Source of the DNA: a virus
Lineage: Duplodnaviria; Heunggongvirae; Uroviricota; Caudoviricetes
IMG/VR virus record: IMGVR_UViG_2654587792_000011
DNA: 14,367 nucleotides
Reading direction: 5' to 3' (one strand)
Shown here: positions 257 to 14,367 of the stretch, in pieces
How the letters are laid out: each line of letters begins with the position of its first letter
Numbering within the stretch: position 1 is the first letter of the stretch
Translations under genes and position numbers: made by a program
The notes under the pieces: model-generated
Databases searched by the model: none
What the model was told of the DNA's origin: nothing
What the model saw: only the letters and a program-made list of their open reading frames with translations

Positions 257-260
257 GTCC

Positions 261-286
261 ATAAGAAAGCCCCTCCGGAGAGGGGC
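261..286 (-). terminator. rho-independent terminator (minus orientation), convergent with 228..256
   Basis: On the minus strand: GCCCCUC-UCCG-GAGGGGC followed by UUUCUUAU. The stem is a perfect 7 bp; the U-tract is moderate. Confidence 0.45.
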
Positions 287-483
287 TGGAGAGTGGCGCT
301 ATGTGCCATTGCATGGTGCCGGGTGCCTCCCGGTGAATTCAGTACCAGCACCTGAATCCGCGATTATCCCATATACCTACTCGCTGATTGCCCCTCCGCA
401 CAGGGGGATTCACCATGCCAGTTTCTTTTAACAAACTCCCCGCAAAACAGACAACAGTCAACCGCCTGAATTGTGAGACATTT

Positions 484-523: not shown

Positions 524-600
524 TGGCGCGTTGTACTGGATTCGAACCAGTGACCGATTGCTTAGAAGGCAATTGCTCTGTCCGGCTGAGCTAACAACGC
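524..600 (-). tRNA. argO: tRNA-Arg (anticodon UCU, reads AGA/AGG)
   Basis: 77-nt cloverleaf read by eye: GCGTTGT acceptor, GCTC/GAGC D-arm, ATTGC-CTTCTAA-GCAAT anticodon arm, ACTGG-TTCGAAT-CCAGT T-arm, encoded CCA. Confidence 0.92.
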
Positions 601-613
601 ATGATGCAGATAA

Positions 614-690
614 TGGACCGCCATCGGGGACTTGAACCCCGCGCAGCCAGCTTCGAAGGCTGGCGCTCTTTCCTGATGAGCTAATAGCGG
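614..690 (-). tRNA. argN: tRNA-Arg (anticodon UCG, reads CGA)
   Basis: 77-nt cloverleaf: CCGCTAT acceptor (one G.U pair), CCAGC-CTTCGAA-GCTGG anticodon arm, CGGGG-TTCAAGT-CCCCG T-arm, encoded CCA. Confidence 0.9.
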
Positions 691-697
691 TATGTGA

Positions 698-773
698 TGG
701 TGGCCCTTGCTGGATTTGAACCAGCGACCTGGCGATTATGAGTCGCTCGCTCTCACCACTGAGCTAAAGGGCC
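698..773 (-). tRNA. ileZ: tRNA with CAU anticodon, ileX/ileZ-like (Ile2, AUA after lysidine modification); Met by anticodon alone
   Basis: 76-nt cloverleaf GGCCCTT...AAGGGCC-A-CCA with anticodon loop CTCATAA. The body closely resembles the E. coli ileX sequence as I recall it. Confidence 0.88.
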
Positions 774-8465: not shown

Positions 8466-8656
8466 GGACGCACCTCCGCCGTAGTTACGTATTTAACCGG
8501 GCTACCTTTCATTGAGATGGTTTCACACATCTCTGCCGCTTTCAGTTCCGCTGTTTTTCTGGATTTATAGCGACGGTGCCAGACAGATACATCCGTGCAA
8601 ACTGATACATCGTTTCTGTATTCCGTAGTGGAGATGATGATTTCGTAACTAATCAT
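8462..8656 (-). CDS. hypothetical protein (64 aa)
   Basis: ATGA overlap with the rha stop and with the next gene. No recognisable motif. Confidence 0.5.
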   Translation of the reverse strand: MISYEIIISTTEYRNDVSVCTDVSVWHRRYKSRKTAELKAAEMCETISMKGSPVKYVTTAEVRP

Positions 8657-9204
8657 GGGCGAACCTCCTTGTCAGAACCATTCAGCCTGGAATCAACAAG
8701 TGCAGCGCCAAAAACAGCATCACCAACACGGTCGTACAGTTTGCTAGCCAGCGGAGATTCAACGGCCTTAAGCATTGGATAAAGCTGGCTTGTCCAGATT
8801 TGATGGATTTCACGCAAATGCAGGTATACGCCTCTGGCGTTTCGTGCGACAGCTGACATATCAACCGCGTCAGCACCAGATAAATTCTTCTCCATCTGGT
8901 TAAAGGCGTTGATGTATGCCTCTTTGAACCGGGCTGCACGTTTGCCAGTAAAGCCCATAGCAAGGAACGCGAAGCCATCGCGGGTGATTTGATAGCAAGG
9001 TAGTTTGCGGCCTGTGCAATCGGTGTAATCACTGGGCTGAAAATTCAGCTCAGTGAATTCAACAGAGCACTCAAGCGTCTGGATTTTTTGAATAACGTTT
9101 TTGTGCTGCTTGCAGAAATATTCGGCAACGGCCAAAGAAGAGGTAACAGCCTTCCCATGGATAACATCAATTTTAGGGTGAGTTTGGGTAGGGGTGGTTG
9201 CCAT
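8653..9204 (-). CDS. rha: phage regulatory protein Rha (183 aa, shortened from the 282-aa ORF)
   Basis: The Rha signature starts right after the internal Met: AVTSSLAVAEYFCKQHKNVIQKI...ITRDGFAFLAMGFTGKRAARFKEAYINAFNQME. ATG at 9204 with GAGGA SD at 9216..9212. The upstream 297 nt carry a terminator and RNA structure. Confidence 0.8.
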   Translation of the reverse strand: MATTPTQTHPKIDVIHGKAVTSSLAVAEYFCKQHKNVIQKIQTLECSVEFTELNFQPSDYTDCTGRKLPCYQITRDGFAFLAMGFTGKRAARFKEAYINAFNQMEKNLSGADAVDMSAVARNARGVYLHLREIHQIWTSQLYPMLKAVESPLASKLYDRVGDAVFGAALVDSRLNGSDKEVRP

Positions 9205-9214
9205 AGTGACATCC

Positions 9215-9256
9215 TCATGTGCGAATTTTGAAAACTCACCACATGGGACGCCAATC
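9215..9256 (-). promoter_or_regulatory. antisense target site pair (a2/b2-like) at the rha ribosome-binding site
   Basis: Minus RNA reads GAUUGGCGUCC (9256..9246), N17, AAAUUCGCACAUGA (9228..9215). The last two nt are the first two nt of the GAGGA SD. Both halves are complementary to loops of the 9262..9340 RNA. Confidence 0.55.
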
Positions 9257-9261
9257 ACAGA

Positions 9262-9340
9262 GGTGGTGAGACGTACAGGGTTGGCGTAACCGGTCGCACA
9301 TGACCCCGGCGCATCTTTCGATGCCCCTGCACGCCCCACC
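9262..9340 (-). ncRNA. c4-like antisense RNA (79 nt)
   Basis: 10-bp closing stem GGUGGGGCGU/ACGUCUCACC leaving a 3' ACC. GAAA-tetraloop hairpin (9327..9308). Large loop carrying UCAUGUGCGA (9303..9294) and ACGCCAA (9287..9281), complementary to the flanking repeated motifs. Confidence 0.6.
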
Positions 9341-9367
9341 ATAATTTGGATGTGAGGAAACGTGCGC

Positions 9368-9390
9368 AAAAAAACCGCTGAAGCGCGGTT
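9368..9390 (-). terminator. rho-independent terminator/attenuator between the upstream target copy and the c4-like RNA
   Basis: On the minus strand: AACCGC-GCUUCA-GCGGUU followed by U5 (7 consecutive A on the plus strand at 9368..9374). Flanked by palindromic TGCGCA arms (9363..9368 and 9392..9397). Confidence 0.6.
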
Positions 9391-9395
9391 ATGCG

Positions 9396-9421
9396 CATGT
9401 GCGAATTTCAGGACGCCAATC
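9396..9421 (-). promoter_or_regulatory. upstream copy of the antisense target pair (a1/b1-like)
   Basis: Minus RNA reads GAUUGGCGUCC (9421..9411), UG, AAAUUCGCACAUG (9408..9396). Both halves are identical to the copy at the rha RBS. Confidence 0.55.
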
Positions 9422-9450
9422 CCGGCACCCGCTTTATAAGGTGCGGAGAC

Positions 9451-9479
9451 AGTGTAACGTCCCGAAATTGCAGAATCAA
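9451..9479 (-). promoter_or_regulatory. candidate promoter for the antisense-RNA cassette
   Basis: On the minus strand: TTGATT (9479..9474), 17 bp, TACACT (9456..9451). Back-to-back with a plus-strand promoter candidate. Confidence 0.3.
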
Positions 9480-9523
9480 TATTTGGTCTTGAAATGATCA
9501 TATAGCTGCTGATATCTTTAGAA

Positions 9524-9610
9524 CTGTTCTTGGATGTTTCGGAGCCGTTTTATGCGAAACAGCTCCCCGTTATTGATGTTGAGTGAGCCGGGTTACTCCC
9601 GGCTTTTTTT
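9524..9610 (+). ncRNA. oop-like convergent small RNA candidate (~85 nt)
   Basis: TTGAAA (9489..9494), 18 bp, TATCTT (9513..9518). Hairpin GGAGCCGUUU...AAACAGCUCC (9541..9566). Plus-orientation terminator 9585..9610 ending at the stop codon of the convergent gene. No ORF. Confidence 0.35.
9585..9610 (+). terminator. rho-independent terminator, plus orientation only
   Basis: GCCGGG (9587..9592) pairs with CCCGGC (9598..9603) across a 5-nt loop, then T7 (9604..9610). In the minus orientation the hairpin is followed by CUCACUCAAC, which is not a U-tract. Confidence 0.65.
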
Positions 9611-10317
9611 CATCGCTGCCAACCAATAACCTGAAATAACCCCATTTTCGGGTGATACCAGCGAGTCCCTCGCGGTTCTGCTTCCTCCATAACCCGATAA
9701 AAAGCAGCCATAAACGGTTCCACAGCAACAATTGCGCGACGTGACAACAATCCGTCCGGCGTCATGAACTCATGTGTGTCTGTAGGAATTTGATAGGCGT
9801 TCACCAGATTGCGGCATTTATCATCTGACAAACCGGTTTTTGCTTTCAGTTGGCGATATCCGGCATAGCCCTCACGAATAGTGCCCTTTTTAATTTGCTC
9901 GACTGTTTCAGCAACGTGGCTGACTTTTTCTTCCACCTGAGTGATCCGTTTCTGTTGGCGAACGGCTTCAAGAGCCATCGCGGCAACCATTTCGATTTCG
10001 CTCATTGGCTTACGGATCTGTTCTTCCAGTTCGCGCCAGCGATCTACCAGGCGAGCTGTGAATTCAGGACAGAGCTGTGCGACGACAATGATGCTGTCGC
10101 GCTTACCTCGTTCACCTTCGAATACATACGCGCTAGAAAATCGGCGAGGCCCAAGTGATTGTTTATTCTCAATTTCCACAGTCTGTGGAAATTGGATGAT
10201 TCCCTTTTTAGCCAGTGTTTCAATAGTTCTCTTAACACTATCTGGTCGGCTTCCCACCAGCTCTGCGATCTCAACGCTGGTCATGGATGCTTTGCCGTTA
10301 AAAATTGCGGTGTTCAT
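9610..10317 (-). CDS. Rha-like / antirepressor-like phage regulator in the cII position
   Basis: 235 aa. N-terminus MTSVEIAELVGSRPDSVKRTIETLAKKG...VVAQLCPEFTARLVDRWRELE follows the Rha-family pattern. AGGAG SD. ATGA overlap with cro. Confidence 0.7.
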   Translation of the reverse strand: MNTAIFNGKASMTSVEIAELVGSRPDSVKRTIETLAKKGIIQFPQTVEIENKQSLGPRRFSSAYVFEGERGKRDSIIVVAQLCPEFTARLVDRWRELEEQIRKPMSEIEMVAAMALEAVRQQKRITQVEEKVSHVAETVEQIKKGTIREGYAGYRQLKAKTGLSDDKCRNLVNAYQIPTDTHEFMTPDGLLSRRAIVAVEPFMAAFYRVMEEAEPRGTRWYHPKMGLFQVIGWQR

Positions 10318-10604
10318 TGTTTATCTCCTGCGTGTATTCCATCCGCTCTGTGTGGTGAACTTGGATTTAGGCTTTTGCGTAACAAGTTAGGAATTCCATC
10401 TTCAGGGTGAGGATAAAGATCTGGCCTTAAGCCATGAGGCGTAACCTTCCATGCAACTACTTCACATACTCGTAAAACGAAACGAGCAGGAATTGTGCTT
10501 TTTGAAAACCACTGATTCACCGCTTGCGGCGTCACACCAAGATTTCGCGCTATGGCATTTTGCGCAATTAATGCACGAAGTTTGTCGTAATCATTTCCTT
10601 CCAT
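10314..10604 (-). CDS. cro: Cro-like HTH regulator (YdaS/Cro family)
   Basis: 96 aa. ARNLGVTPQAVNQWFSKSTIPARFVLRVCEV...LRPDLYP matches the YdaS/Cro-type HTH. Divergent from the repressor gene. Confidence 0.75.
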   Translation of the reverse strand: MEGNDYDKLRALIAQNAIARNLGVTPQAVNQWFSKSTIPARFVLRVCEVVAWKVTPHGLRPDLYPHPEDGIPNLLRKSLNPSSPHRADGIHAGDKQ

Positions 10605-10737
10605 AACAAAGCACCAATATTAACTTTATAAATCAAGAATACATCAAGTTTAAATTAACATGCAAATTACAAAAGGATCGAATACACTAAAATCAAGTAA
10701 AGATTTATCCTTGTAAAGAAACCCACAGGATTTGGTC
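10605..10737. promoter_or_regulatory. divergent PR/PRM-type control region with ATCAAG-type operator half-sites
   Basis: AT-rich 133-bp spacer. ATCAAG occurs at 10632, 10643 and 10692. The 17-mer ATCAAGTAAAGATTTAT (10692..10708) resembles the PL palindrome. Several -35/-10-like hexamers on both strands are not resolved. Confidence 0.5.
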
Positions 10738-11427
10738 ATGAAGAACGTCAAAAACACGGAAAATCGAATAGCCGCGATGCTGAAAGCAAAAGGATGGACT
10801 CAGGCTCAACTGGCCCGCAAGTTAGGTGTGAGTGCGCAATCAGTGCAGTACTGGACAACAGGAAAAACATTTCCACGGAGTGATAAGCTCGCGCATTTAT
10901 CAGAGATTAGCGGTTATCCACAATCCTGGTTCTTAGGTGAAGACTCCTCACCAACCTTTTCCTCGCAAGAGAAACACCAGACAAGAACAGATAGCGTCGT
11001 ATTTAATGTCCTTGATGTTGAGTTTAGTTGCGGTGATGGAACTCATGTCCGTGGTGACTTGATAGATGTAGTGCGCTCAATAGAACTTGATCCTGAATAT
11101 GCCCGACGTCTTGTTGGAAATCGGGCATTCAAAAATATAGAAATAGGTAACGCCAGAGGAGACAGTATGGCTCCCACAATCTCACCTGGCGACCTTCTTT
11201 TTCTTGATAAGACAGTAACTTATTTTGATGGCGATGGTATTTATGCATTTTGTTTTGATGGAGAATGCTACGTGAAAAGGCTTCAAAAAATTGGAAGCAA
11301 AATCATGGTGTTATCTGATAACCCCAATTATCAACCATGGAGCATCGAAAAAGAGGGGTTAGCTCTGCTTTATATCCAGTCTAAAGTGATCTCATCAGTA
11401 CCATTCAACATAAACAGATTTGGTTAG
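10738..11427 (+). CDS. cI: cI-type prophage repressor (XRE HTH + S24/LexA-like autopeptidase)
   Basis: HTH WTQAQLARKLGVSAQSVQYW. GDSMAP Ser143 and YVKRL Lys180 are 37 residues apart, as in LexA. Putative cleavage site Cys98-Gly99. ATG at 10738 with AGGA SD is preferred over the TTG at 10732. Confidence 0.9.
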   Translation: MKNVKNTENRIAAMLKAKGWTQAQLARKLGVSAQSVQYWTTGKTFPRSDKLAHLSEISGYPQSWFLGEDSSPTFSSQEKHQTRTDSVVFNVLDVEFSCGDGTHVRGDLIDVVRSIELDPEYARRLVGNRAFKNIEIGNARGDSMAPTISPGDLLFLDKTVTYFDGDGIYAFCFDGECYVKRLQKIGSKIMVLSDNPNYQPWSIEKEGLALLYIQSKVISSVPFNINRFG

Positions 11428-11438
11428 TCTTTGATTTT

Positions 11439-11461
11439 AACGGGCTTTGCCCGTTTTTTTT
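11439..11461 (+). terminator. rho-independent terminator after the repressor gene
   Basis: AACGGGC-TTT-GCCCGTT followed by a T-run of 8, 12 nt after the stop codon. Confidence 0.75.
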
Positions 11462-11491
11462 CTGCCTGAAATATACGATATCAATTTTTTC

Positions 11492-11520
11492 TTGACAGCC
11501 TGTTTCCCAAAACATAATAT
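11492..11520 (+). promoter_or_regulatory. PL-like early-left promoter
   Basis: TTGACA (11492..11497), 17 bp, TAATAT (11515..11520). The -35 is overlapped by ATCAATTTTTTCTTGAC (11480..11496), an operator-like 17-mer. Confidence 0.6.
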
Positions 11521-11526
11521 CGCACC

Positions 11527-11543
11527 ATCAATTATAACTTGAT
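11527..11543. promoter_or_regulatory. palindromic operator at the PL start site
   Basis: ATCAATTATAACTTGAT has perfect ATCAA/TTGAT arms and starts 7 bp after the -10 hexamer. It shares its half-site with the cro/cI intergenic repeats. Confidence 0.5.
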
Positions 11544-11573
11544 TTGATTCAATTTAAAATTGTTGGCGGATAT

Positions 11574-12122
11574 ATGAAGACACTAAAAGCAACTCCAGAA
11601 ACAACTAATTTTATCAACTGCGGCTGTGTTACGCTTAAGGGCTTAGAACTTGATTCCTTTGCATTAAATATTGCAAATTTGCTAAGTGCTGTACGCACAT
11701 TCCATCTTCTGGATTGTGCTCGCTCAAAGGAACTGGGCATTGAGGTAATGGAATTTATCCATGAATATGCTCTATCTGCTGCTTCTCCTGCACAACAAAA
11801 ACAATCCTTCCCTGAAAGCTGGCTGGTTAACCTTCGCACCCAACGCGAAGCCTGCGGCTTAACAACCGCCGAACTCGCCAGGCTGCTCGATCTCGATGAA
11901 GAAATTATCATCCAGTGGGAGAGCGGAGAGTATGAACCAACTATCAGTATGCTTATCCCACTGGCAAATATTCTTGGCTGCGATCCGATGTGCCTGTTAA
12001 CTGGTGAGGTTACTCCTCCGGAGCAACCAAAAAGTGAGGAGCAGCAACACCATGACGCATCTCAACAAGTTTGCCCCTTATCTCGCGAAGCTCTTCTGCG
12101 GAAGAACCAATACCAATGGTGA
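11574..12122 (+). CDS. first PL-operon gene: novel N-terminal domain + XRE-type HTH + disordered tail
   Basis: 182 aa from ATG 11574 (the track TTG at 11544 is less likely). HTH GLTTAELARLLDLDEEIIIQWESGEYEPT. Residues 24-70 are paralogous to the C-terminus of the 12251..12616 product. Confidence 0.7.
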   Translation: MKTLKATPETTNFINCGCVTLKGLELDSFALNIANLLSAVRTFHLLDCARSKELGIEVMEFIHEYALSAASPAQQKQSFPESWLVNLRTQREACGLTTAELARLLDLDEEIIIQWESGEYEPTISMLIPLANILGCDPMCLLTGEVTPPEQPKSEEQQHHDASQQVCPLSREALLRKNQYQW

Positions 12123-12270
12123 CATAATCGCCGCTTCGCCCTTCAAGGTACATGCGAACATTTTTATCAATCATTGCGGAAACAGTCTCAATATGAAAAC
12201 ACTTCTGAGACTCGCTATATAGCAGAACATATAAGTCAGCTGAGGAAGCCATGAAAAAGTTCGAAAACAT
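12010..12270 (-). CDS. antisense-embedded small protein (86 aa), unknown function
   Basis: GGAG (12281..12278) lies 7 nt before ATG 12270. Perfect TATAAT at 12302..12297. Globular-looking sequence (LYVLLYSESQKCFHIETV...). Fills the 128-nt gap between plus-strand genes. Overlaps neighbours by 113 nt and 20 nt. Confidence 0.45.
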   Translation of the reverse strand: MFSNFFMASSADLYVLLYSESQKCFHIETVSAMIDKNVRMYLEGRSGDYVTIGIGSSAEELREIRGKLVEMRHGVAAPHFLVAPEE

Positions 12271-12616
12271 AACTGTTCTCCATGTTGATGACTTTGATTA
12301 TACAAACCCGGAACTTCTCCCGGAGGTTGTAAAGGCAATGGATGTTGCCGATATAGTGATTAGAGAAAAGAGAATTGTCAAAAACAGGCTCGCATGCACT
12401 TCAGGAGCAATGACAGAAACAACCTCACAGCAAGATAATTACGAAGGCATTTGTCTGGAGCCTGATTCATTTGCGGTAAATGTTTATCATTTATTGCATG
12501 CAACACAGGTATTACATATGTCCAGTAATCACGAAACGAAAACACTCGGCAGCGAAATTCTGAGTTTTGCATGTGAGTATACAAAAGCTGCTGCCGAAAA
12601 AGAATTAGCGCAATAA
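12251..12616 (+). CDS. orphan protein (121 aa) sharing a domain with the HTH protein but lacking an HTH
   Basis: GAGG SD 5 nt before the ATG. Residues 69-115 align ungapped with residues 24-70 of the 11574..12122 product (20/47 identical by hand count). Confidence 0.65.
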   Translation: MKKFENITVLHVDDFDYTNPELLPEVVKAMDVADIVIREKRIVKNRLACTSGAMTETTSQQDNYEGICLEPDSFAVNVYHLLHATQVLHMSSNHETKTLGSEILSFACEYTKAAAEKELAQ

Positions 12617-12694
12617 CAACAAATATGCCCTGAACGTTTATTGCGGTTTTATCGCCGGGGATTGTTACAACCTTAATCCACAGGAGGCTTTATT

Positions 12695-12808
12695 GTGACT
12701 TTTATAAAGAATATGGCATCACACAAGACCGCCTGCCTTATTGCACAATACGGTGAAAATTACATGCATATTGCCTGCTTATTTCTGCGTAAAGCATACG
12801 GGAGATAA
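12695..12808 (+). CDS. 37-aa micro-ORF (below the ORF-track cutoff)
   Basis: AGGAGG (12682..12687) lies 7 nt before GTG 12695. Product MTFIKNMASHKTACLIAQYGENYMHIACLFLRKAYGR. Its stop is 2 nt before the next ATG, and its 3' end supplies that gene's GGGAGA SD. Confidence 0.35.
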   Translation: MTFIKNMASHKTACLIAQYGENYMHIACLFLRKAYGR

Positions 12809-13806: not shown

Positions 13807-13875
13807 AGTGGCACACTGAATTTGGCCACCTGAACAGAGGTGATATGCTCACCTCAGAACAACACAGGTGCTCCA

Positions 13876-14367
<492 letters not shown>

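What the first reader, a model, noticed from the sequence alone, without database searches (positions are those of the whole stretch)
9489..9612. oop-like convergent small RNA abutting the cII-position gene, divergent from the c4-cassette promoter
A clean terminator (9585..9610) works only in the plus orientation, opposite to every neighbouring gene. Its U-tract ends at the stop codon of the convergent 235-aa regulator. Upstream lie a second hairpin (9541..9566) and a TTGAAA-18-TATCTT promoter candidate (9489..9518). That candidate sits back-to-back, 10 bp from the minus-strand TTGATT-17-TACACT candidate. The size (~85 nt), two-hairpin layout and position (between the cII-analogue and the replication genes, antisense to the PR transcript) mirror lambda oop RNA. 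Unlike oop, it overlaps only the 3' UTR and not the coding end.
Basis: partly seen in the sequence, partly recalled or inferred. Interest (0 to 1): 0.5.

Follow-up and report, generated by a model that had tools for sequence, protein, structure and literature searches.

The report
Candidate prophage antisense small RNA gene
A short stretch between two early genes of an E. coli lambda-like prophage has the conserved hallmarks of its own ~85-base non-coding RNA gene, read against the phage's early transcript; this RNA is in no RNA database, but nobody has yet shown that it is made.

Summary
On the + strand there is a sigma-70-like promoter (TTGAAA-18-TGaTATCTT, 9489-9518), a hairpin (9541-9566) and a strong plus-only intrinsic terminator (stem-loop 9587-9603, T-run 9604-9610) whose last T is the first base of the stop codon of the convergent 235-aa gene. 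The window is an E. coli lambdoid prophage. The module lies between an Ant/Rha-family gene (not a CII homologue) and an isrK-C4-antirepressor cassette. It occurs in about 244 of 5426 complete E. coli genomes in three sequence types. All three keep the promoter hexamers, the TG, a 10-nt block at the predicted 5' end (GTTCTTGGAT), a hairpin and the terminator. The hairpin sequence itself is replaced: it is 42-46% identical between two types that are 92-100% identical everywhere else. No Rfam family, no lambda oop homology and no conserved ORF were found. Best reading: an optional, self-contained small-RNA gene, oop-like in position and architecture but not an oop homologue. It most likely acts as a type-specific countertranscript on the PR read-through RNA. 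A trans-acting role through the conserved 5' block is a serious rival. There are no expression data. Interest is moderate.

The parts
9489..9494 (+). -35 hexamer TTGAAA of the candidate small-RNA promoter
   Evidence: scanner. Identical in types A, B and C; one TTGGAA variant and one ATTGAAA context variant among 25 unique sequences.
9510..9518 (+). Extended -10, TGaTATCTT (TG at 9510-11, hexamer at 9513-18), 18-nt spacer
   Evidence: Types B and C have TGgTATTTT at the same spacing. Promoter elements differ at 1 of 14 positions against 8 of 16 in the rest of the spacer, p = 0.013.
9526..9535 (+). Conserved block GTTCTTGGAT at or next to the predicted 5' end (start predicted at about 9524-9526)
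   Evidence: Conserved in all three types although the flanking sequence diverges. No variable column among 68 type-A loci.
9541..9566 (+). Hairpin 1, the type-variable stem-loop
   Evidence: Fold results (z = -3.1). Replaced by unrelated sequences that also form a hairpin in type B (z = -3.7) and type C (z = -1.6). 31-46% identity between types.
9567..9586 (+). Linker; GTTGAGYGA (9578-9586) is conserved
   Evidence: Alignments.
9587..9610 (+). Intrinsic terminator: GCCGGG-TTACT-CCCGGC plus T7. The last T is the first base of the convergent stop codon.
   Evidence: The stem is conserved and the T-run is 6-8 in all 25 unique variants. No minus-strand terminator is called here.
9610..10317 (-). 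Convergent 235-aa Ant/Rha-family early gene. Its mRNA 3' end and the read-through RNA are the cis target.
   Evidence: phrog_63 anti-repressor Ant, 3e-46; Pfam Rha 25.6 bits, below the cutoff.
9451..9479 (-). Back-to-back promoter of the isrK-C4-antirepressor cassette (TTGATT-17-TACACT)
   Evidence: Sequence. The isrK model starts at 9444. The cassette boundary in other phages is at about 9484.
9259..9444 (-). Context: isrK (9368-9444) and C4 (9259-9346) RNAs
   Evidence: Rfam hits above gathering score, 62.3 and 75.1 bits. c4-type a/b repeats.

Best explanation
**What it is.** The segment 9489-9610(+) is an optional, self-contained small-RNA gene (a 'moron' with its own promoter and terminator). 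It sits between an Ant/Rha-like early gene and the isrK-C4-antirepressor cassette of an E. coli lambdoid prophage.

**The RNA.** An extended -10 sigma-70 promoter would start an RNA at about 9524-9526. The intrinsic terminator would end it at about 9607-9610. The product would be about 85 nt:
- a single-stranded 5' block, GUUCUUGGAU;
- a type-variable hairpin;
- a linker;
- the terminator hairpin and U-tail.

**Proposed mechanism (inferred).** The RNA is perfectly complementary to the intercistronic part of the rightward early (PR) transcript. That transcript must read through here to reach the cassette and the replication genes.
1. The RNA acts as a countertranscript.
2. Pairing probably starts at the complementary hairpin-1 loops, since both strands fold.
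3. It spreads into a duplex of about 85 bp.
4. RNase III would cut this duplex, and convergent transcription would add interference.
5. This uncouples or destabilises the Ant/Rha cistron and the downstream cistrons.

Because hairpin 1 differs between types, the effect in trans on co-resident or superinfecting phages would be type-specific.

**Shown:** the anatomy, its conservation and its distribution.
**Inferred:** transcription, RNA ends, pairing, RNase III involvement and the biological effect.
For: - Anatomy and fold.
- Positive control: the same scanner gives lambda Po/oop an equal score.
- Three types (A, B, C) in 25 unique sequences from about 130 loci keep TTGAAA-18-TGnTATnTT, GTTCTTGGAT, a hairpin, GTTGAGYGA and a terminator with T6-8.
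- Promoter elements are more conserved than the spacer, p = 0.013.
- Hairpin 1 is replaced by unrelated sequences that still fold: z = -3.1, -3.7 and -1.6.
- The 5' block and hairpin-1 segments are the least conserved part (42% and 46% in B vs C), while the flanks are 83-100% identical.
- The plus-strand fold is about 7 kcal/mol better than the minus-strand fold in types B and C.
- A terminator C-to-T variant and a type-B A-to-G variant keep pairing only on the plus strand.
- No conserved ORF: type C lacks the ATG, and the reading frames run through the terminator.
- The module is optional. The same gene end is followed directly by a DUF4222 ORF, or by a hairpin plus a Bro-N gene, in other phages.
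- Among 68 type-A loci the module has 5 variable columns in 126 nt, while the linked isrK, C4 and the Rha 5' part vary.
- No minus-strand terminator lies between the gene and isrK, so PR read-through is expected.
Against: - No transcript data of any kind. No paper or Rfam family describes it.
- The promoter match alone is not above chance in this window.
- Two type-A variants (G9541A, G9544A) break plus-strand pairing but give G-U on the minus strand.
- phiP27-type phages keep a hairpin next to the stop codon with a poor T-tract and no room for an intergenic promoter.
- A cis target that is only an intercistronic spacer gives no obvious reason for the conserved 5' block. That block fits a trans-acting seed better.
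Confidence: 0.4

Rival explanations
1. It is a real small RNA, but it acts in trans (probably with Hfq or ProQ) on a host mRNA or host sRNA. The conserved single-stranded 5' block GUUCUUGGAU is the seed. The variable hairpin is only scaffold, and the antisense position is incidental. This would resemble the prophage 'anti-sRNAs' AsxR and AgvB.
For: - The pattern of conserved 5' block, variable middle and conserved terminator with U7 tail is the usual pattern of trans-acting enterobacterial sRNAs.
- It echoes the conserved 3' / variable 5' design reported for EcOnc01-03 (PMC4104026).
- The module behaves as an optional moron.
Against: - No complementary site was found for the 5' block in the window.
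- No site above background was found in a complete type-A phage genome: best -20.5 kcal/mol, against a mean best of -22.1 for shuffled seeds.
- The host genome could not be scanned.
- In the predicted folds of types B and C the 5' block is partly paired.
Confidence: 0.25
2. The functional strand is the minus strand. On this view the two hairpins are elements of the early polycistronic mRNA. They could be a 3' stabiliser of the Ant/Rha cistron, a processing site, or a nut-like boxA/boxB. Alternatively the plus-strand terminator only insulates the immunity region from stray antisense transcription. In either case the promoter match is fortuitous.
For: - Both hairpins fold equally well on the minus strand in type A (-28.5 against -28.0 kcal/mol).
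- Hairpin 1 is a continuous 10-bp stem there.
- Two type-A variants preserve minus-strand pairing only.
- phiP27-type phages keep a hairpin after the stop codon without a good T-tract.
- The minus strand carries a boxA-like CGCUCAAC in types B and C, and A-rich loops.
Against: - The T6-8 run is conserved in every variant and is useless on the minus strand.
- The promoter hexamers and TG are conserved.
- The plus-strand fold is better in types B and C.
- No N-like protein and no second (nutL-like) copy of the hairpin were found in the leftward operon. The complete PhiR49_2 genome annotates only Q.
- Distant Rha/Ant homologues, and some close ones, have no hairpin at all.
Confidence: 0.2
3. It is a non-functional leftover of mosaic recombination between the Ant/Rha module and the isrK cassette. 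The promoter-like, hairpin and terminator features are remnants or chance.
For: - The segment lies exactly at a mosaic junction; flanks recombine at about 9445-9484.
- The promoter score is not exceptional.
- The family is narrow. Both viral-contig DNA scans recovered it only between this gene and the isrK cassette, and a GTDB-species scan with the protein found no module.
Against: - Three independent sequence versions keep the same architecture.
- Replacement is local, inside otherwise 92-100% identical DNA.
- The module is near-invariant across 68 mosaic contexts.
Confidence: 0.1

Closest known systems
Lambda oop RNA (77-nt antisense RNA from promoter Po, opposite to PR)
   Same: - A short RNA transcribed against the PR operon from a promoter in the gap after the gene that follows cro.
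- A 5' hairpin plus an intrinsic terminator, of similar size.
- A promoter of the same scanner score with an extended -10 TG.
   Different: - No sequence homology.
- The upstream gene is Ant/Rha-like, not cII.
- The RNA stops at the stop codon instead of overlapping about 55 nt of coding sequence.
- The promoter is not inside a replication gene.
- Hairpin 1 is hypervariable between types.
c4 / isrK-type antisense immunity RNAs (P1/P7 c4; Gifsy-1 IsrK, STnc1160)
   Same: - A small structured phage regulatory RNA in the same locus.
- Type-variable recognition sequences.
- It lies back-to-back with a genuine isrK-C4 cassette.
   Different: - Opposite strand, separate promoter, no Rfam C4 or isrK match.
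- Its type does not co-vary with the isrK/C4 allele: types B and C share isrK/C4 but differ in hairpin 1, and type A is linked to several alleles.
Prophage anti-sRNAs AsxR/AgvB (EcOnc01-03) of EHEC
   Same: - Short, terminator-ended, prophage-borne moron-like sRNA genes.
- A conserved 3' part and a variable part, convergent with neighbouring genes (PMC4104026).
   Different: - Those lie downstream of PR' in the late 'moron' site and are 51-60 nt with a variable 5' end.
- Here the location is the early region, the 5' end is conserved and the middle varies.
- Sequence relationship was not tested.
P22 sar RNA (antisense to the ant ribosome-binding site)
   Same: A convergent small antisense RNA in an antirepressor region.
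   Different: - sar overlaps the ant translation start. This RNA overlaps no start site.
- Only the speculative phiP27-type variant would do so.

Membership tests
Lambda oop RNA | Sequence or structure homology to oop | tested here: not met
   nhmmer with the lambda oop sequence against the window finds no hit at E <= 10.
Lambda oop RNA | Overlaps the 3' coding end of cII (about 55 nt) | tested here: not met
   The T-run ends at 9610, the first base of the stop codon 9610-12. The neighbour is Ant/Rha-family, not CII.
Lambda oop RNA | Promoter opposite to PR in the gap after the second PR gene; about 77-nt two-hairpin RNA ending at an intrinsic terminator | tested here: met
   compared. In silico only.
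Lambda oop RNA | RNase III-dependent cleavage of the target mRNA | not testable with these tools
   Needs rnc+ and rnc- hosts.
Any Rfam 15 family | Score at or above the family's gathering threshold | tested here: not met
   The best overlap is sroD at 24.5 bits against a gathering score of 50, and it covers the terminator only. Nothing was found in type B, C or D loci.
Intrinsic (Rho-independent) terminator | G+C-rich stem, short loop, and a U-tract of at least 5 directly after it on the transcribed strand | tested here: met
   8 pairs (6 G-C), loop of 5, T7. Plus strand only. T6-8 in all variants.
Sigma-70 extended -10 promoter | TTGACA-like -35, 16-18 nt spacer, TGnTATAAT-like -10; conserved in relatives | tested here: met
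   9/12 plus TG. Conserved in types A, B and C. Activity not tested.
nutR (boxA-boxB) on the minus strand | An N-type antiterminator gene and a matching nutL copy in the leftward operon | tested here: not met
   No Arg-rich N-like ORF and no family hit. No similar hairpin in 11440-12700. PhiR49_2 annotates only Q.
Prophage anti-sRNA group (AsxR/AgvB) | Located 3' of PR' in the moron site; 51-60 nt; conserved 3' ~42 nt shared by the group | tested here: inconclusive
   Location and size differ (early region, about 85 nt). Sequence was not compared because no reference sequence was fetched. Description from PMC4104026.
Hfq-binding sRNA module | Terminator hairpin preceded by a U-rich stretch and followed by at least 6-7 U; Hfq association | not testable with these tools
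   A U7 tail and a moderately U-rich linker (UUAUUGAUGUUGAGU) are present. Binding is untested.

The most novel reading that the evidence does not exclude
The hypervariable hairpin is a specificity determinant of a new RNA-based layer of immunity in lambdoid prophages. A resident prophage would constitutively make a countertranscript that cuts or blocks the early operon of co-resident or superinfecting phages of the same hairpin type only. This would act between the antirepressor-like gene and the c4 cassette. Diversifying selection would have generated types A, B and C. Alternatively, the conserved 5' block makes it a host-directed sRNA carried by about 4.5% of E. coli genomes.
Probability: 0.2. 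Interest if true: 0.6.

Novelty: new member of a known kind. Interest (0 to 1): 0.4.

Why it matters
- If it is transcribed, this would be an unannotated small-RNA family carried by about 244 of 5426 complete E. coli genomes, including Stx2-converting phages, O55:H7, O111, O145 and some ST131 strains.
- It sits at the heart of the lysis-lysogeny control region, next to two antirepressor-type genes and a c4-type RNA switch.
- It would add a third RNA regulator to that locus.
- The replaced hairpin offers a simple natural system for studying how antisense specificity diversifies.
- Current genome annotation runs a 282-aa ORF (8653-9501) across isrK, C4 and the first 13 bases of this module, which hides all of these RNA genes.

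Tried and rejected
- **Rfam.** Gathering and E-value modes on the window and on type B, C and D loci gave only isrK, C4 and c4-a1b1 near the site. The sroD, PrrF and SorX/Y hits are sub-threshold terminator matches.
- **Literature.** Searches on isrK, EcOnc, oop, c4 and exact sequence strings describe no RNA at this position. HnrS lies in late genes. STnc1160 is the processed C4 region.
- **Species-representative genomes.** A scan with the 235-aa protein found only 54-74% identical relatives, whose next gene starts within a few bases of the stop codon and leaves no hairpin.
- **Metagenome scan.** The pattern GTTCTTGGATN{25,55}GTTGAG was too loose.
- **Trans targets.** No complement of the 5' block exists in the window. 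k-mer complementarity in all loci gave only a same-sense 12-mer in cI. An RNAduplex scan of a whole type-A phage genome was at background.
- **nutR idea.** No N gene and no nutL copy were found.
- **Small ORF idea.** The ATG at 9534 is absent in type C, and the frames run through the terminator.
- **Operators.** Inspection by eye found no LexA box. The CI-operator-like half-sites (ATCAA/TTGAA) have the wrong spacing compared with the PL palindrome ATCAATTATAACTTGAT.
- **Formal covariation counts.** Not feasible, because MAFFT cannot put the three unrelated hairpins in register.
- **Sakai and EDL933.** I could not determine whether these well-studied strains carry the module.

Full report
**Context**

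The window is the early region of an E. coli lambdoid prophage, with the rightward operon on the minus strand. It is at least 98% identical over the site to several Stx2-converting phages, phage ASU11 and PhiR49_2.

Reading along the minus strand, the order is:

| Feature | Coordinates | Evidence |
|---|---|---|
| CI-type repressor (divergent) | 10732-11427 (+) | |
| Cro-like gene | 10314-10604 | |
| 235-aa gene; its start overlaps the cro-like gene by 4 nt | 9610-10317 | |
| The intergenic segment in question | about 9485-9609 | |
| isrK | 9368-9444, 62.3 bits | |
| C4 | 9259-9346, 75.1 bits | |
| Rha-family antirepressor | real start probably ATG 9204 | |
| Small ORFs and replication genes | further downstream | |
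| Three tRNAs and STnc100 | 524-773 (tRNAs) and 257-447 (STnc100) | |

- The 235-aa protein is an Ant/Rha-family protein (phrog_63 'anti-repressor Ant', 3e-46; Pfam Rha 25.6 bits, below the cutoff). It is not a CII homologue.
- A CII-like protein (phrog_4836) is encoded in the leftward operon at 11574-12122.
- The c4 architecture is complete. The a/b repeats occur once in isrK and once at the antirepressor ribosome-binding site, and C4 carries the complement.

- The scanner finds TTGAAA(9489)-18-TATCTT(9518) with a TG at 9510-11.
- It also finds a plus-strand terminator at 9585-9605 followed by T7.
- This terminator is listed third of 33 terminator-like sites, against 15.5 expected.
- The T-run (9604-9610) shares its last base with the stop codon 9610-12.
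- On the minus strand the hairpin is followed by CACTCAAC, and no terminator is called there.
- Hairpin 1 (9541-9566) and the terminator dominate the fold of the predicted RNA (-28.8 kcal/mol, z = -3.5).
- The isrK promoter TTGATT-17-TACACT lies back-to-back, with the two -35 hexamers 9 bp apart.
- The promoter match alone is not significant: 13 sites were found and 16.2 expected.
- The expected number of such a site in the 80 nt upstream of a given terminator is about 0.045.
- As a control, the same scanner scores the true lambda oop promoter identically (9/12 plus TG) and finds the oop terminator.

**Distribution**

- The 130-nt module is in 211 of 5426 complete E. coli genomes, at 99% identity or more in 204 of them.
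- A second form is in 33 further genomes.
- The 3' end of the 235-aa gene is in 277 genomes.
- The remaining genomes sampled, 3 of about 33, show two alternatives at the same position:
  - a short hairpin followed by a Bro-N gene, as in phiP27;
  - a DUF4222 ORF that follows the gene after 19 nt, with no hairpin (also Stx1 phages).
- Other phages with the same isrK promoter but a different upstream gene carry unrelated DNA from about 9484 onward.
- Distant homologues of the protein in Yersinia, Providencia, Proteus and others have no hairpin.

The module is therefore an optional insert with its own promoter and terminator. In every locus recovered by two viral-contig scans and in every E. coli record inspected, it lies between this gene type and the isrK cassette.

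**Three types**

25 unique sequences from about 130 loci fall into types A (the window), B and C.

All three types keep:
- TTGAAA-18-TGnTATnTT;
- the block GTTCTTGGAT at the predicted start;
- a hairpin;
- GTTGAGYGA;
- the GCCGGG/CCCGGC terminator with T6-8.

Between A and B, the promoter elements differ at 1 of 14 positions. The rest of the spacer differs at 8 of 16 (one-sided Fisher p = 0.013).

Segment identities are the most telling result:

| Segment | Identity between types |
|---|---|
| 3' 150 nt of the gene | 97-99% |
| Terminator | 89-93% |
| isrK promoter | 90-98% |
| 5' block (9525-9540) | 38-54% (A vs B/C); 42% (B vs C) |
| Hairpin 1 (9541-9566) | 31-46% (A vs B/C); 46% (B vs C) |
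| Everything else, B vs C | 83-100% |

- The three hairpin sequences are unrelated, yet each folds: z = -3.1, -3.7 and -1.6.
- All three share an outer GG/CC stem around different inner stems and U-rich loops.
- Among 68 type-A loci, the module has 5 variable columns in 126 nt, while the linked isrK, C4 and the 5' part of the gene vary heavily.
- The module therefore travels with the 3' part of the gene and is independent of the c4 allele.

**Which strand?**

| Favours the plus strand | Favours the minus strand |
|---|---|
| The conserved T-tract | G9541A and G9544A in type A give A-C on the plus strand but G-U on the minus strand |
| The conserved promoter | Hairpin 1 is a continuous 10-bp stem on the minus strand |
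| Lower folding energy in types B and C (-32.6 vs -25.4; -30.1 vs -23.4 kcal/mol) | phiP27-type phages keep a hairpin with a poor T-tract (CTTTCTTATTT) and only about 50 nt to the next gene |
| The type-B variant GAAGT to GAGGT | |
| The terminator variant GCCGGG to GCTGGG; both of these last two pair only on the plus strand | |

This mixed signal is what one expects if both strands must fold, as in antisense pairs that meet through complementary loops. It is equally compatible with drift.

**What it is not**

- It matches no Rfam family in any type.
- It is not an oop homologue.
- It has no conserved ORF.
- It is probably not a nutR site. No N-like protein and no nutL-like copy were found in the window, and PhiR49_2 annotates only Q.
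- It is not described in the papers searched.

**Mechanism**

I commit to an independent small-RNA gene whose product is a countertranscript of the PR read-through RNA. No minus-strand terminator separates the 235-aa gene from isrK. Early transcripts should therefore carry the exact complement of the RNA.

Proposed steps, all inferred:
1. Loop-loop contact at hairpin 1.
2. Formation of a duplex of about 85 bp.
3. RNase III cleavage of that duplex, together with collisions between convergent polymerases.
4. Separation or destabilisation of the Ant/Rha cistron and the downstream cassette and replication cistrons.
5. Type specificity when the RNA acts in trans on other prophages.

The serious rival is a trans-acting sRNA that uses the conserved 5' block as a seed. 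That would explain why the block is conserved while the hairpin is not. I found no target in the window or in a whole type-A phage genome. The host genome could not be scanned.

My estimates:
- about 0.65 that a plus-strand RNA is made at all (0.4 for the cis model plus 0.25 for the trans model);
- about 0.4 for the cis-antisense model as stated;
- 0.25 for trans action;
- 0.2 for a minus-strand or insulator role;
- 0.1 for no function.

**Verdict**

The element is oop-like in place and architecture, but it is not an oop family member and it does not sit beside a cII analogue.
- It is a new, unvalidated member of the known kind 'prophage antisense or small RNA'.
- The unusual feature is a locally replaced hairpin.
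- Interest is moderate, and one Northern blot would settle the first question.

Noticed in passing
window 8653-9501 (-): The 282-aa ORF that RefSeq and GenBank records annotate as 'Rha family phage regulatory protein' or 'ash family protein' runs across the Rfam isrK and C4 RNAs and 13 nt into the candidate promoter. The likely real start is ATG 9204 (Shine-Dalgarno GAGGA), giving 183 aa with a full Rha domain at residues 21-106.
   Followed up: partly
window 9211-9228 / 9391-9408, 9246-9256 / 9411-9421, and 9294-9303: A complete c4-type a/b target arrangement. Two repeats occur once inside isrK and once at the antirepressor ribosome-binding site, and C4 carries the complement of one of them.
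   Followed up: partly
window 9255-9398 (-): A 47-aa ORF spans the isrK terminator and C4. It may be the counterpart of Gifsy-1 orf45, which couples antirepressor translation to IsrK (PMC4825925).
   Followed up: no
L003 (phiP27) 2440-2530; same in L212 and L213: In phiP27-type phages, TTGATT-18-TGaTATTGT lies inside the 5' end of the Bro-N gene and points at the hairpin after the Ant/Rha stop codon. It would give an RNA of about 60 nt antisense to that gene's Shine-Dalgarno sequence and GTG start, in the manner of sar. It scores 8/12, below the scanner's threshold, so this is speculative.
   Followed up: no
window 9573-9584 (+) and 11012-11023 (+): The 12-nt linker sequence TTGATGTTGAGT recurs in the same sense inside the cI coding region, at a conserved offset in type-A loci. 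About 0.13 such matches are expected by chance. Because it is same-sense, it is not a pairing site.
   Followed up: partly
window 9610-10317 (-): Between types, the 3' 450 nt of the Ant/Rha gene is 95-99% identical but the 5' 257 nt only about 72%. This looks like swapping of the N-terminal DNA-binding part.
   Followed up: no
window 257-447 (-) and 524-773 (-): There is a strong STnc100 hit (139 bits) next to tRNA-Arg(tct), tRNA-Arg(tcg) and tRNA-Met. By comparison with PhiR49_2, this is the region downstream of the Q antiterminator.
   Followed up: no
L148, L142, L178 (IMG/VR contigs), just upstream of the isrK promoter: In some phages the same isrK promoter is back-to-back with a protein-coding ORF (possibly a toxin-antitoxin gene; not checked by any search) behind a palindromic operator-like sequence (CAAACATAACnATTTTGTTATGTTT). 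A divergent unit at this spot is therefore not unique to the module.
   Followed up: no
window 13840-14178 (+): A transposase-like fragment (phrog_151, phrog_17819) lies in the leftward operon.
   Followed up: no
window 9495-9502 (+): The type-A promoter spacer contains the palindrome ATGATCAT with a GATC (Dam) site. It is absent from types B and C.
   Followed up: no
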